Assembly (NCBI GenBank): GCA_047601445.1
Contig: JASGJH010000001.1
Location: 1,792,001-1,856,000, forward strand
DNA length: 64,000 bases
Source of the DNA: Myxococcales bacterium
GTDB lineage: Bacteria > Myxococcota_A > Polyangia > Polyangiales > DASUME01
Reading direction: 5' to 3'
Made by a program: the position numbers. Each line of letters opens with the position of its first letter. Positions within the stretch are counted from its first letter, which is position 1. This document shows positions 54,001-60,000 of this stretch, one piece after another.

Positions 54001-57000
54001 CATGCTGGTCTGCGTGATCGTCACCATCTATCCCGCCAAACTTGCGTCACGCCTGCAACCCGTGGACGCCTTACGCTACGAATGAGCCGCTACGAGTGAG
54101 CCCCATGGCCGAGCCTGTCGCAAAGTCGCTTCCGCTGGTAGAAGTCCGAGGTGTCACCAAGCGCTTCTTTCACGAGGGGCGCGAGCTGGTCATCCTGAAC
54201 CCCATCGAGCTCACCATCGAGCGCGGTGAGATGCTGAGTATCGTGGGAGCTTCAGGCGCCGGGAAGAGCACGCTGCTGCATCTGCTCGGGACCCTCGATC
54301 TCCCGTCCGAGGGGCACATCCTGTTCGAGGGTCAGGACGTCACGGCCTACTCGAGCTCCCAGCTGGCGCAGTTCCGCAACGCGACCCTGGGCTTCGTCTT
54401 CCAGTTCCATCACCTGCTGCCCGAGTTCTCTGCCCTGGAGAACGTGCTGATGCCGGGCCTCATCCGCGGGCTCGCGCGCAGCAAGCTGGAGCCCCGGGCC
54501 CGCGAATTGCTCAACGAAGTGGGCCTCACGCACCGCCTGGCACATCGCCCCGGGGAGCTCTCGGGGGGCGAGCAACAGCGCGTGGCCCTGGCGCGCGCTC
54601 TGGTCATGGATCCGAAACTGGTGCTAGCGGACGAACCCACGGGCAACCTGGATTCGGCCACCAGTGAGGCCATCCACGAGCTGTTTTTCCGGCTGAACCG
54701 TAGCCACGGCACCACCTTTCTGATCGTCACCCACAGTCGTGATCTCGCGGCGCGCATGCCGCGCGTGGTGCACATGCGCGACGGTCGGATCGAGCGCGAC
54801 GAACGCCGGAACTCACCTTCCTCCGAGGGTGGCTTGGCCAGCTGAGCAGGGGCCGGACGGCCTCCGTTTTTGGTGGCGGCTCGAGTCGCCCAGCGCTCGC
54901 TGCGACCCGGTCCCCAATCTCGAAATTTCCCAGAATCTGCACGCCCTTTCGCTGCGCTCAGGACTGGCGCCCAGAACCCTCACGGGCTACACCGGCCCTG
55001 CCTCGGGGCAAGCCCGCCTCGGCTGATCTTGCACCACGGCATGAAGCGCCTCGTCACGCTCCTCGCACTCATCGCGATCGCTCTCGCTGCGTTCGCAGGC
55101 GACGCGCATGCGCAGTTCGGCCAGAAGAAACCCGAGCCGAAACCGGCCCCCAAAGCACCTCCGCCTCCTCCGCCCGAACCGGAGCCCGAAGCGCAGTTCG
55201 AGCCCGAAGCGCCCGTCGCGCCGGCAGAGCCTGTCGGCCCGGCTGCCACGCAGCCCGCCTGGGAAGAAGATGCCGGAGCGCCCGAAGAAGCCGCGGCGGA
55301 AGAAGAGCAAGAGATCGCCCCGCGCGCCGAAGCACCCACCGTGATGGTGCCGCGTACCATCTGCGAAGGACGTCGCATCGGCGCCGTCGAGGTCAGTGGC
55401 AACGGCCGCGTGTCGGCGGACGACGTGCGCGCCAGCATGAAGCTCAAGCCGGGCCTCAACTGCAGCGATGCCGAGGTGGCCCGAGACGCCAAAGCGCTCT
55501 GGGATCTGGGCTATTTCGACGATTTGATCTTCCGCGCCCGCCTCGAGGGCGAGCTCGTGATCCTCAACCTCGAGGTCAAGGAGCGCCCCGCGATCGGCAA
55601 GATCACCTTCGAAGGCGACGACGAGATCGACGAAGAGGACATCGACGAGAAGGTCACGCTCGAAGTCGGCGCCATCCTGGTGGAGAACGAGGTCCGCGAC
55701 CAGATCCCCAAGATCCGCGACGTGTACGCCGAGGAGGGCTTTTTCCTGGCCAAGGTCAGCTACCGGCTGATCGCCATGCCCAACAACCAGGTGAACGTTC
55801 GCTTCGACATCGTGGAGGGTCCCGAGGTCTCGGTGCGTCGCATCCAGTTCGTGGGGAACGACCACCTGAGCGACGACGACATCCTCGAGTTCATGCGCAC
55901 GCACCCCACGGGGTTCTTCTCGTTCTTGAACTCGAACGACACCTTCAAGCGCGAGTTCTTCGACGAGGACGTGCTGCGCATCCAGGCCCTCTACTACGAC
56001 AAGGGCTACCTCAACGTGCAGGTGCTGCCGCCGCGCGTGGAGCTCACGCCGGACCGTCAGCAAATCGACATCACCATCCCCATCAAGGAAGGTCCGCGCT
56101 TCAGGATCGGCCGCCTGCGCGTGGTGGAGTACGACAACAACGGCAACGAGGTCGAGCCGCTGGGCGGACGCCGCGCAGTGCGCGAGAAGGTCACCGCGCA
56201 ACCCGGGGACTGGTTCAGCCGCACCAAGTTGTCCGAGGGCATCGAGGGCATCACCCGCCACTACCGCGACGAGAGCTTCGCCAAGGTCGAGGTCGAACCC
56301 GAGACGCAGCTCGAACCCGAGCGCAACACCGTGCACATCACGGTGGGCATCCGGCGCGGCCCCGAGTGTCACGTCGAGCGCATCGAAATCCAGGGCAATG
56401 ACAAGACACGCGACCGCGTGATCCGCCGCGAAATCCTGATCACCGAGGGCGAGAAGTACAGCCAGTCGATGGTCGAGCGCAGCAAGGACCGCATCACGGC
56501 CCTCGGCTACTTCGAGCGCGTGGACATGTCGGAGGCCGACGGCGCGACCCCCGACGGGCTCATCATCACCTACGAGGTGAAGGAACGCGCCACCGGTACG
56601 TTCCAGGTCGGCGCGGGCTTCTCCTCGATCGAGCAGTTCATCCTGACAGCCCAGGTCGACCAGCAGAACCTGTTCGGCCATGGCCAGTCGCTGTCCTTGC
56701 AAGCGCAGATCTCGGGCATTCGCCAGCTGGTCCAGATTCAGTTCGTCGAGCCCTATTTGATGAGCACCATGTGGTCGCTCTCGGTCGACGGCACGCGCAC
56801 CAGCAACGCCTTCCAGGCCTTCACCACGCGCACTACGGGCGGCGGCCTCACGCTCGGTCACCCGGTGTTCAGTCGCAACCTGCGTCTGGCCCTGCGCTAC
56901 AGCGCGGACTTCGTCGAAGTCGGCGCCACCACGGGTGGCTTTTTCACCGCAAGTGCCCAAGGTGCCGCAGCACAGCAGCGGACCCCGTTGGCCAACACCC

Positions 57001-60000
57001 AGCTCGGCGGCTTCACGAGCGCGCTGCGCCTCTCCCTCACCTGGGACTCGCGCGACAACCGTATGTTCCCGACCAAGGGCATCTACTCCTCGCTCTCGCA
57101 GGAAGTCGCGGACCCGTGGCTCGGCTCGCAGCGAACCTTCGCCCGCACCAAGTTTTTCGCACGCTTCTACTACCCGTTGTTCTGGGGCATGGTGCTCCGC
57201 CTCAACACCGAGGCCGGCCTCATCACCTCACGCAACCCCAAAGGCGTGCCGCTCTACGAGCGCTTCTACCTGGGTGGCATTCTCAGCGTTCGTGGGTTCC
57301 CCTATTGGGGCCTGGGACCGCGCGCCTACTTTCCGTCCACGGTAGATCCGAACGCACCGAACGTCTCCACCCGCATCGGCGGCAACGCACTCTTGCGCTC
57401 CAACTTGGAGCTCGAGTTCCCCATCCTGACGTCGGTGGGCATCAAGGGCGTCATCTTCACCGACGCTGGCAACGTGTGGAACCTCGAGAAGCAGAAGTGC
57501 GACCTGCCCGAGGAGCCGATGCAGGACAACGCCCGAAAGGTCTGCGGCTTCAACAAGCTCCGATACTCCTGGGGCTTCGGCGTGCGCTGGTTCTCTCCGA
57601 TGGGCCCGTTGCGCTTCGAGTGGGGCTTCCCCATCGCCCGCCGCTCCTACGACGACAAGGTCAACTTCCAGTTCACCATCGGCCAGTTCTTCTAGTTTTC
57701 GGGGAGGTCACGCGACCTCCCCGCCCGTCGCGGCAAAGCCGCGCCGCGGCCCACCCCGCCGCGAGGTTCGCTGCGCTCACGGAGTGCTCTCTCCTTCCAG
57801 GAGCGAGGTCACGCGACCTCCCCGCCCGTCGCGAGGTTCGCTGCGCTCACGAGTCCCGCCAGCCGGCCTGCATGGGGCACGTGCGCTCCGCGCCAGCTCG
57901 CCTGGGGCAATCTGGCAGGCCGTAAAAAGACCTGTGAATCCGGCCAGGAGCTCGGGCGTCCGCGCCTTCGTGTGCGCGCCTGCCAGCATGTTTCGAGTTA
58001 GGCACGCCGCCTGCTTCCTGCTTGACCGGACCATGCCCAGCAGGTAGCAACCCGCCCAGAAGAAAAGGAATTTCTCCATGACTCTCAAGCTCGGCCTTGC
58101 CCGCTCCATCCTGTCTCTGCTCGCCGTGCTCGTGCTCTCGGGGCTCATGCCCAAGGCTGCGTTCGCGCAGGCCGCCAAGATTGGCGTGGTCGACCTTCAG
58201 CGCGCCATCAACGAGACCGAAGACGGCCGCAAGTCGAAGGACAAGCTCAAGAAGCTTTTCGAGAGCCGTCAGACGGGCCTCGACAAGAAGCAAGAGGACC
58301 TCAAGAAGCTCAAGGAAGAGATCGAGAAGCAGCAGAGCCTGTGGACGCCCGAGGTTCGCCAGCAGAAGATCGAGTCCTATCAGAAGCAACTTGTGGACCT
58401 GCAGCAGATCTACGTGGACTACCAGCGGGAGCTCGCGGAGAAGGAAGGCGAGCTCACCAAGACCATCGTGGAGCGCATGGAGAAGATCTTGCGCCGCATC
58501 GGTCAGACCGACGGCTACACGCTGATCATGGAGCGCAGTGAGGCAGGCATCATCTACGTGCCCACCAATCTCGACCTCACGGACATCGTGATCCAGCGCT
58601 ACAACGCCGGCGAAGGCGCCGAGGCCACGCCCAAGGCGGCGGCTCCTGCCAAGCCCGCCGCGCCCGCCAAGCCCAAGTGACGCAGCGCGCGGAGGCAAAG
58701 GCTCAGTCGCTCTGAGCCGCCCCGCGCCCTCGAATCAAAGCGCCTCGTGAGCGCGCGAACCTCGCCTCGGGTGGTCCCAAGAGGCAGAGCCGCGACGGGC
58801 GGGAGGGCGCGTGCCCTCCCCCTGCGGTGACGAACGCGCACTCCCATGACGTGGCAAGCGCGCCCGTGATAACCTGGACGCTGACTTCCCCATGAGTACG
58901 AGCACGTCACTCACGTTCGATCTTCCGCAGATTCTGCGCATCCTCCCGCATCGCGCGCCCTTCGTGCTGCTCGACCGCGTGATCGACATCCAGCCGCGGA
59001 AGAGCGCGCGCGCGCTGAAGTGCGTGACCTACAACGAGCCGTTCTTCCCGGGGCACTTCCCTGGCAAGCCCATCTTCCCGGGTGTGCTCATGCTGGAGGC
59101 CTTGGCTCAGCTCATCGGGGTGCTCGCGTACGCCTCCGAGCCCTTCGATAGCAACCAGAAGATCATGTACTTCATGGGCATCGACAAGGCTCGGTTCAGG
59201 GCGCCGGTGGTGCCGGGAGACCGCATGGTGCTCGACGTGCAGGTGCTGCAGCGCAAGTCCAACATCTGGAAATGCGCGGGCGCGGCCAGCGTGGACGACG
59301 CCGTGTGCGCCGAGGCCGAGCTGCTCGCGGCCATCGTCGATCGCGAAGACCGCACCTAGCGCGCGCGCGCAGACTCGCGGGACCTCAGCCGAGCTTGGCT
59401 TCCAGCTGCTCGGAGCTCAGCTGCTCCACGACGTCCAGGCGCAGCAGGAAGCGCTGAAAGCTCTTGTAGCCAGGCGGATAGGTGCCCTTGAGGTGTACGT
59501 CGATGATGCGTGTGGTGGCGAAGCGCAGGCAGGCCAGCCGCATGCTCCACCAGAGCCCCGGCCACTCGCCCGCGGCGAACTCGCGCTCACTGCGGTAGCC
59601 GCGCACCATGGCGCGCGCGAGCTCCCAATCCAGCGTGTCCCCACAACACCAGGCGAGCATCGTCACCGCCAGGTCGTAGATCACGGTGCCGTGGCTCGCG
59701 CTCTCCCAATCGAGCAGAGCGGCGATGTCGGGGCCTTGCCAGAGCACGTTGTCGCGGAAGAGGTCGCCGTGGACCACGCCCTGAGGAAGCTGCGGATAGC
59801 GGGCCGATAGCTCCGCGTGGAGGGCCCGTAGGCGCGCCACCGGAGCGGTCAGCTCAGGACGTTGCTGCGCGCTTGCCCGGTCGAGCAGGCGCGCCACGTC
59901 GGTCAAGCCAAAGCGGCCTTGGCGCACGATCGGAAAGTCCTCGCCCGCCTTGCTGGCGCGCGCGAGTGCCGCGCCCACGGCCTCTGCGCGCTGCGCGTCG

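What a model noticed while it worked through the whole genome (the two positions that open the first line are those of the whole stretch)
55041..59359. No lipid A or Lpt genes here and in most Polyangiales families
The genome lacks lpxA/B/C/D/K, waaA and the Lpt transporter; the bamA-skp-fabZ operon given here has no lpx gene. LpxC is missing from most families of the order but kept in four, so life without LPS is the rule in Polyangiales and not a Sorangium peculiarity.
Evidence so far: No Pfam rows; operon call 74; LpxK none in six frames; LptF/G in 1 of 10 genus genomes, on a short contig; LpxC in 8 of 41 order genomes, all in 4 of 20 families. A Caulobacter-type sphingolipid cluster and a ceramide glucosyltransferase homolog are present.
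(Added by a program. Inside this text positions count along the whole contig: contig position 1,792,001 is position 1 of the stretch shown here. "Call 12" and the like, gene names such as g00115 and contig names such as C1 are that model's own, and its searches are not shown. The text may have been shortened before it was handed on; [...] marks where a part breaks off. The agent that wrote the report below was given it as the finding of a first reader that could run no searches.)

Follow-up and report, generated by a model that had tools for sequence, protein, structure and literature searches.

The report
Myxobacteria repeatedly abandoned lipopolysaccharide
This uncultured myxobacterium and about three quarters of its sampled relatives keep an outer membrane but have deleted the genes that make and transport lipopolysaccharide, many times independently, so a trait known from one species appears to be common in this order, while the relatives that still make the lipid seem to lack its usual Kdo sugar.

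Summary
Confirmed, with corrections. The single-contig 9.5 Mb genome has no lpxA/B/C/D/K and no lptA/B/D/F/G even by profiles built from its own relatives. Flanking genes are intact where relatives carry them: lpxD and lpxA (211 and 25 bp gaps around fabZ) and lpxC (28 bp gap at window 12853-12880). Of 201 order genomes, 151 lack LpxB, C and K together; 199 have BamA. LptA follows the same pattern (48 of 50 versus 2 of 151). Fifteen lipid A-free families form one clade (one loss), whereas Polyangiaceae shows about nine more losses. The sphingolipid genes are not in Caulobacter layout. New: lipid A-positive Polyangiales lack WaaA (0 of 49) and mostly KdsA, and carry a GT-C transferase behind lpxB, predicting Kdo-free lipid A. 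Ceramide synthase homologs occur in 193 of 201, a likely pre-adaptation. LpxC is also missing from 97 of 120 genomes of other orders of the class. The phenotype is known for Sorangium; no lipid chemistry here; two key papers could not be read.

The parts
55041..57695 (+). bamA, outer-membrane protein assembly factor
   Evidence: TIGR03303 642 bits, cut-off 297
58078..58680 (+). skp (OmpH) periplasmic chaperone
   Evidence: PF03938 E 1.9e-28
58681..58891 (.). 211-bp spacer at the place where lipid A-positive relatives carry lpxD
   Evidence: sequence; bamA-skp-lpxD in G010; skp-lpxD-fabZ-lpxA in G118; lpxD-fabZ-lpxA behind bamA in class genomes G220, G221, G202
58892..59359 (+). fabZ, 3-hydroxyacyl-ACP dehydratase
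   Evidence: TIGR01750 176 bits, cut-off 155
59360..59384 (.). 25-bp spacer at the place where relatives carry lpxA; followed by convergent thrB (59385-60338, minus)
   Evidence: sequence; comparison as above
51890..54845 (+). lolC/E and lolD, lipoprotein export to the outer membrane, upstream of bamA
   Evidence: best NCBIfam matches TIGR02212 and TIGR02211, each a little under cut-off
8563..12852 (+). large TPR protein, left flank of the ancestral lpxC site
   Evidence: 31% identical to the gene before lpxC in G010; TPR hits
12853..12880 (.).
   Evidence: sequence; G010 order TPR-lpxC-lipoprotein-aroKB; G027 has lpxC beside the same lipoprotein and pilQ; class genome G220 has lpxC in the same neighbourhood
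12881..13579 (-). putative lipoprotein, right flank of the lpxC site (open frame)
   Evidence: 25% identical over 190 aa to the G010 neighbour of lpxC, E 2e-12
13701..17590 (-). aroK-aroB fusion and pilQ secretin (open frames), conserved context of the lpxC site; PilQ is an outer-membrane protein
   Evidence: Pfam SKI, DHQ_synthase, Secretin; synteny

Best explanation
The organism is a diderm that has deleted the whole lipid A pathway and the whole Lpt bridge and builds its outer membrane without LPS. Shown: the genes are gone and the gaps are clean; BamA, Skp, Lol, Pal and a secretin remain; the loss happened once in the ancestor of a 15-family clade that holds this genome, once in family f13, and about nine times within Polyangiaceae, each time taking Lpt along (two exceptions). 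Inferred: loss was easy because the ancestor already made ceramides (bCerS homologs are near-universal in the order) and had already reduced its LPS to a Kdo-free lipid A carried by a fast-drifting Lpt. The outer leaflet is most likely filled by sphingolipids as in Sorangium cellulosum, in this genus probably with sterols. With Lpt gone these lipids most likely cross the periplasm by TamB-type bridges (four here, each beside an Omp85 gene) or by Mla/MCE systems.
For: Absence by Pfam and by lineage-specific profiles. Deletion sites with intact flanks: lpxD, lpxA, lpxC in the window; lptA-lptB before rpoN in 4 of 4 positive genomes but not here, and lptD before a diguanylate cyclase in 6 of 10 lptD loci, while here cyclase and rpoN start about 400 bp apart; lptF before aspC in 4 genomes but not here. 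Concordance in 201 genomes: 47 hold LpxB, C and K, 50 hold any, 151 none; LptA in 48 of 50 and 2 of 151; LptD in 24 of 25 positive and 2 of 54 negative genomes tested; control BamA 199 of 201. BamA tree: the 15-family clade has SH-aLRT 99 and its sister G010 is positive. LpxC subclades in Polyangiaceae repeat the BamA subclades. bCerS homologs 193 of 201, two here. WaaA 0 of 49, KdsA 3 of 50 in lpx-bearing Polyangiales, both found in class controls G221 and G202. Squalene epoxidase-synthase fusion and oxidosqualene cyclase. Four TamB-like genes.
Against: No lipid analysis. bCerS is as common in lipid A-positive genomes (58 of 59 in Polyangiaceae), so it permits but does not mark the loss. The serine palmitoyltransferase candidate scores 314 bits against a cut-off of 640 and scores as well with BioF/Kbl models; no clear CerR (best 27%). 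The cyclase is patchy: 43 of 201 at E 1e-120, 3 of 60 in the largest negative family, and present in positive G147, G149, G165, so sterols cannot be the general substitute. TamB numbers were not compared between positive and negative genomes. Ornithine lipid genes were not tested. The tree rests on one gene, 87 of 201 genomes, a quick search without bootstrap; several forks in Polyangiaceae are under 80. Contig ends do not overlap, so closure is not shown.
Confidence: 0.72

Rival explanations
1. The genes are lost as described, but the outer leaflet is filled mainly by something other than sphingolipids: ornithine or other amino lipids, ether phospholipids, or a Kdo-anchored capsule glycolipid.
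For: SPT and CerR assignments are weak; bCerS does not track the loss; this genome has a kps capsule locus with its own Kdo genes; Sorangium is recalled to hold ornithine and ether lipids beside sphingolipids (Keck 2011, recalled, not read).
Against: bCerS is kept in almost every genome, even the 1.8 Mb G056, which points to an essential membrane role; the capsule-type KdsA is sporadic (3 of 50 tested).
Confidence: 0.17
2. Lipid A genes were lost once at the base of the order and regained by horizontal transfer in Polyangiaceae, f9 and f10, so there were not many losses.
For: lpx genes are scattered in Polyangiaceae; G014 and one of two G189 copies carry LpxC that does not group with their family; G010 LpxC is unresolved in that tree.
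Against: lpxC sits in the same neighbourhood in G010, G027 and class genome G220; lpxD follows skp in G010 and G118 as in class genomes; lptAB precede rpoN. Regain would need at least six unlinked loci at ancestral places. LpxC subclades match BamA subclades.
Confidence: 0.05
3. The genes are present but too diverged to detect.
For: Pfam did miss LptD, LptF and LptG in positive relatives.
Against: Profiles from the relatives themselves find orthologs across families, including sister genome G010 (LptD E 1e-17), but nothing here; the gaps at the ancestral sites are 25-400 bp.
Confidence: 0.04
4. Absence is an artefact of incomplete assemblies.
For: Most genomes are MAGs; single genes do drop out (G060 and G197 lack only LpxC, G183 only LptA, G027 lacks BamA, bCerS and LptD hits).
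Against: This genome is one contig with a single V-shaped GC skew; all surveyed genomes are at least 90% complete; BamA is found in 199 of 201; five unlinked loci vanish together; whole families are negative (0 of 60, 0 of 22, 0 of 11), including single-contig genomes G032, G038, G104, G056.
Confidence: 0.02

Closest known systems
Sorangium cellulosum So ce56, LPS-lacking myxobacterium (Keck et al. 2011, J Biol Chem 286:12850; title seen in the reference list of PMC11324152; text not held)
   Same: Same order; diderm without LPS; sphingolipids as the likely substitute.
   Different: One strain with chemistry versus 151 of 201 genomes by gene content; this genome belongs to a separate, older loss outside Polyangiaceae. 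Whether that paper reports loss of Lpt I could not check.
Sphingomonadales and Caulobacter sphingolipid system (PMC11324152, passages read; E. coli BL21 cluster)
   Same: bCerS homologs; sphingolipid-based outer leaflet in LPS-free members.
   Different: There aasR-cerR-acpR-spt cluster with a second LptF/G pair proposed to carry sphingolipids. Here no Lpt remains, bCerS lies apart, and the candidate spt sits with two ketosynthases, a fatty acyl-AMP ligase and two ACPs.
Kdo-free LPS of cyanobacteria and the four-enzyme pathway (PMC3087551, passages read)
   Same: Lipid A-positive Polyangiales likewise lack WaaA and mostly KdsA.
   Different: They keep LpxK and carry a PMT_2/ArnT-like GT-C transferase behind lpxB; cyanobacteria have only lpxA, C, D, B. 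That paper's main text does not mention Sorangium or Myxococcus.
Myxococcus xanthus LPS (PMC12288465, passages read)
   Same: Related phylum member.
   Different: Has LPS with one Kdo; Polyangiales have either none or a predicted Kdo-free form.
Perez-Burgos et al. 2019, Mol Microbiol 112:1178 (citation seen; text not held)
   Same: Recalled to include a survey of LPS genes in complete myxobacterial genomes; it may already report absence in some cultured Sorangiineae and Nannocystineae.
   Different: Could not be checked; it predates most MAG-based families sampled here.

Membership tests
LPS-free diderm of the Sorangium type | Outer-membrane machinery present (BamA, Skp, Lol, Pal, secretin) | tested here: met
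LPS-free diderm of the Sorangium type | lpxA, lpxC, lpxD, lpxB, lpxK absent | tested here: met
   Pfam and lineage profiles, deletion sites
LPS-free diderm of the Sorangium type | No LPS or lipid A by chemistry | not testable with these tools
   no lipid data
LPS-free diderm of the Sorangium type | Sphingolipid pathway (SPT, bCerS, CerR) | tested here: inconclusive
   two bCerS homologs at E 1e-73 and 1e-78; SPT candidate under cut-off; CerR unclear
LPS-free diderm of the Sorangium type | Ornithine and ether lipids (recalled) | not tested
   no search run
Caulobacter/Sphingomonas sphingolipid system | aasR-cerR-acpR-spt with cerS in one cluster | tested here: not met
   cluster C1:3207869-3214009 lacks cerR and bCerS; bCerS at C1:1020976 and 1464558 in unrelated context
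Caulobacter/Sphingomonas sphingolipid system | LptF/G (second or only copy) kept | tested here: not met
   no hit with E. coli LptF2/G2, Pfam or Polyangiales profiles
Cyanobacterial Kdo-free LPS pathway (for the lipid A-positive relatives) | WaaA absent | tested here: met
   0 of 49; found in class controls G221, G202
Cyanobacterial Kdo-free LPS pathway (for the lipid A-positive relatives) | LpxK absent | tested here: not met
   LpxK in all 50 lpx-bearing genomes

The most novel reading that the evidence does not exclude
Polyangia show a stepwise exit from LPS: a ceramide-making ancestor first dropped Kdo and WaaA and replaced them by a GT-C transferase acting on free lipid A, its Lpt machine drifted beyond Pfam recognition, and then lipid A and the entire Lpt bridge were deleted at least ten times, leaving an outer membrane of sphingolipids (with sterols in some lineages) supplied without Lpt, probably by TamB-type bridges. 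This would make LPS-free and Lpt-free diderms the majority of a large free-living class, and give an undescribed Kdo-free lipid A in the remainder.
Probability: 0.4. Interest if true: 0.85.

Novelty: new variant of a known kind. Interest (0 to 1): 0.68.

Why it matters
LPS is taught as the hallmark of Gram-negative envelopes, and free-living exceptions are treated as oddities. Here the exception is the majority of a sampled order and, by LpxC alone, of the class. Why LPS is essential in some bacteria and dispensable in others is a long-standing question: about eleven independent losses, including a positive and a negative genome in one genus (G165, G185), give paired natural tests. PMC11324152 states that it is not known how sphingolipids reach the outer membrane and proposes second LptF/G copies; lineages without any Lpt require another route. 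The positive relatives predict an undescribed Kdo-free lipid A and name a candidate enzyme. The Pfam blindness to their LptD/F/G is a practical warning for envelope surveys.

Tried and rejected
Pfam LptF/G, LptD and LptD_2 as tests of absence: rejected, blind in positive controls. TIGR04406 LptB: under cut-off in all five genomes, so replaced by synteny. Missing waaA as a sign of LPS loss: rejected. KdsA in this genome as an LPS remnant: rejected, it lies in a kps locus. The LptF/G hit in the genus (G031): on a 1,745-bp contig, canonical type, not matched by the Polyangiales LptF profile, genome has no LptA or LptD hit; treated as contamination, origin not shown. Sterols as the general substitute: rejected, patchy. 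BioF-like genes at C1:7692669 and 5807844 and three distant oxoamine synthases as SPT: first passes the BioF cut-off, others lack lipid context. Faster BamA evolution after LPS loss: seen in the tree, but neighbouring genes of G185 are also more diverged than those of G165, so not claimed. Ceramide glucosyltransferase: two motif scans found nothing credible. PDB search with the GT-C protein: no match. Rows dropped before counts: LpxB partial hits G050, G137; eight weak LpxK hits (G039, G045, G066, G085, G089, G119, G125, G150); LptA weak hit G188 (a canonical lptD fragment on a 1.6-kb contig); LptD weak hit G023; G014 left unlabelled on the tree. Ten literature searches found no survey of lipid A genes across Polyangiales; subscription papers are not searched.
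Full report
The locus. Cumulative GC skew has one maximum and one minimum, as for a whole chromosome, but the contig ends do not overlap. 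The run is prfB, lysS, lolC/E, lolD, bamA (55041-57695), skp (58078-58680), fabZ (58892-59359), then thrB on the other strand. The spacers after skp and fabZ are 211 and 25 bases. Three lipid A-positive class genomes have lpxD-fabZ-lpxA behind bamA, two negative class genomes have bamA-skp-fabZ like this one; G010 has bamA-skp-lpxD-lptG and G118 skp-lpxD-fabZ-lpxA.

A second deletion site lies in the window. In G010 lpxC stands between a large TPR gene and a lipoprotein followed by aroK-aroB; G027 and class genome G220 have it in the same neighbourhood. Here the TPR gene (8563-12852) and the lipoprotein (12881-13579; 25% identical to the G010 neighbour) are 28 bases apart.

Lipid A genes in the genome. 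Pfam finds no LpxC, LpxB, LpxK or LpxA C-terminal domain, while 4 of 4 positive controls have LpxA. Profiles built from relatives give nothing for LpxC (best E 0.36), LpxB, or WaaA, only a P-loop fragment for LpxK, and only partial hexapeptide paralogs for LpxA and LpxD. tblastn with nine Lpx and Lpt proteins of the nearest positive genome finds one weak hexapeptide hit, while Skp and AroKB controls hit at 66% and 47%.

Lpt needed its own test. Pfam LptF/G passes cut-off in 2 of 201 genomes although 50 have lpx genes; Pfam LptD and LptD_2 miss 4 of 4 positive controls. I therefore located the real genes. lptA-lptB precede rpoN in 4 of 4 positive genomes; an LptA profile matches 51 of 201 genomes, 50 strongly. 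A 726-residue frame before a diguanylate cyclase matches LptD in the ESM Atlas by features (0.97) and structure (TM 0.63-0.67); a 116-sequence profile of its family matches 24 of 25 positive and 2 of 54 negative genomes among 80 chosen handles, and not G014. Diverged lptF lies before aspC in four genomes. None of these profiles hits this genome. Here the cyclase and rpoN start about 400 bases apart, back to back, and aspC is preceded by pal.

The order. In 201 genomes at least 90% complete: LpxC 48, LpxB 51, LpxK 58 at E 0.001. After dropping two partial LpxB and eight weak LpxK hits, 47 genomes hold all three, 50 any and 151 none; LptA is in 48 of the 50 and 2 of the 151. BamA is found in 199. 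Positives fall in f14 (Polyangiaceae by source names; 40-42 of 59), f9 (6-7 of 7), f10 (1 of 1), f13 (1 of 20). The sample is uneven: f7 gives 60 genomes. Outside the order, LpxC is in 23 of 120 class genomes, with families at 0 of 20, 0 of 19, 0 of 18 and 0 of 12; only LpxC was surveyed there.

How many losses. A BamA tree of 87 order genomes and 5 class outgroups (IQ-TREE quick search, SH-aLRT only, agreeing with FastTree) puts 15 negative families, this genome among them, in one clade (99) with positive G010 as sister (99). f13 is a second negative group; its one positive genome, G027, gave no BamA hit and is not on the tree. Within Polyangiaceae negatives fall in about nine places by my count, some at forks under 80; the fewest changes on the whole tree are 12. 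LpxC subclades repeat BamA subclades in Polyangiaceae and the genes sit at ancestral places, so repeated loss fits better than regain. G014 and a second G189 copy look foreign.

The relatives that kept lipid A. None of 49 has WaaA at E 0.01; only G014 does, in its foreign-looking cluster. KdsA is in 3 of 50, beside kdsB, kdsC or kpsF homologs of this genome's capsule locus. Class genomes G221 and G202 have both genes, three other class positives neither. In 25 of 30 lpxB loci, including G010, a PMT_2-type GT-C transferase follows lpxB, and it has no homolog here (best E 0.058). Inference: these bacteria make a Kdo-free lipid A and decorate it with this enzyme. A WaaA too diverged for Pfam cannot be excluded, but the parallel lack of KdsA argues against it.

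What replaces LPS. Homologs of bacterial ceramide synthase (query E. coli BL21 YghO) occur twice here and in 193 of 201 genomes, positive and negative alike. The best SPT candidate (C1:3207869-3209158) lies with two ketosynthases, a fatty acyl-AMP ligase and two ACPs, without cerR, bCerS or lptF/G; it scores under the SPT cut-offs, so the name is inferred. PMC9386255 (passages read) notes acpR-aasR operons in myxobacteria in a context unlike that of Rhodobacteria, and PMC11334938 (passages read) that co-location is not required. The genome has a squalene epoxidase-synthase fusion and an oxidosqualene cyclase, shared by 4 of 4 genus relatives but patchy in the order. Four TamB-like genes each adjoin an Omp85 gene (a profile of their C-termini hits E. 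coli TamB at E 1.8e-19) and there are at least five MlaE-like genes; their role in lipid supply is a guess from known bridge-like transfer proteins (recalled) and was not compared across genomes. KdsA, KdsB, KdsC and KdsD lie in a kpsF-kpsM-kpsT-kpsE capsule locus.

Prior knowledge. The LPS-free state of Sorangium cellulosum So ce56 is published (title seen; text not held). PMC11324152 (passages) says the route of sphingolipids to the outer membrane is unknown and proposes second LptF/G copies. PMC3087551 (passages) describes Kdo-free cyanobacterial LPS and does not mention these organisms in its main text; its supplements were not read. PMC12288465 (passages) gives M. xanthus LPS one Kdo. PMC9535733, PMC7484181 and PMC12211065 (term searches) had nothing on Polyangiales. 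Ten searches found no order-wide survey, but Perez-Burgos 2019, recalled to tabulate LPS genes in complete myxobacterial genomes, was not held and may cover part of this. Earlier notes of this scan had nothing on this topic in this genome and one parallel case in Alphaproteobacteria.

Verdict. The kind is known; the scale, the Lpt co-loss and the intermediate I did not find in print. All of it is gene content; chemistry is missing. Interest 0.68.

Noticed in passing
L334 (G167:C45) and L335 (G179:C3); L370, L371: Two Polyangiaceae genomes without lpxB/C/K keep lptA and lptD, but lptB is missing between lptA and rpoN: a decay intermediate or a motor-less bridge with another cargo.
   Followed up: partly
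L045-L074, behind lpxB (e.g. L085:7701-10037, minus): PMT_2/ArnT-like GT-C transferase in 25 of 30 lpxB loci, absent from this genome; candidate for Kdo-independent lipid A glycosylation.
   Followed up: partly
L330:4686-6863 (G062) and profile A4: A short (about 600-650 aa) LptD family of Polyangiales that Pfam misses and databases call hypothetical; conserved cysteines near both ends; no LptE or separate LptC was looked for.
   Followed up: partly
L248 (G014:C47): Cluster lpxD, lpxC, waaA, a GT9, a PAP2 phosphatase, lpxK and kdsB in a genome without LpxB, LptA or LptD hits; its LpxC groups with that of G027. Transfer or contamination.
   Followed up: partly
G000:C1:8932152-8949397 (L262): ABC-type capsule locus with a full Kdo pathway (kpsF, kdsA, kdsC, kdsB) in an LPS-free genome; no kpsD was seen in the stretch read.
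   Followed up: partly
G000:C1:4796454-4802257 (L261): Squalene epoxidase fused to squalene synthase (1254-aa frame with a cyclase-like middle stretch) followed by oxidosqualene cyclase.
   Followed up: partly
G000:C1:792145, 848045, 5446392, 7632655: Four TamB-like genes of 1400-1630 aa, each beside an Omp85 gene.
   Followed up: partly
BamA tree: Most lipid A-negative Polyangiaceae have longer BamA branches than their positive sisters; no proper control gene was available.
   Followed up: partly
G056: A 1.8 Mb single-contig Polyangiaceae genome, 96% complete, lipid A-negative, still with BamA and bCerS; probably a reduced symbiont.
   Followed up: no
G000:C1:3865262, 3875840, 1102787: Three related alpha-oxoamine synthases (PRK07505-like) each beside a secreted beta-propeller-like gene; function not examined.
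   Followed up: no
window 51890-54085: LolC/E is 731 aa, with an N-terminal membrane extension and an acidic insert in the periplasmic part, against about 410 aa for the family model.
   Followed up: no
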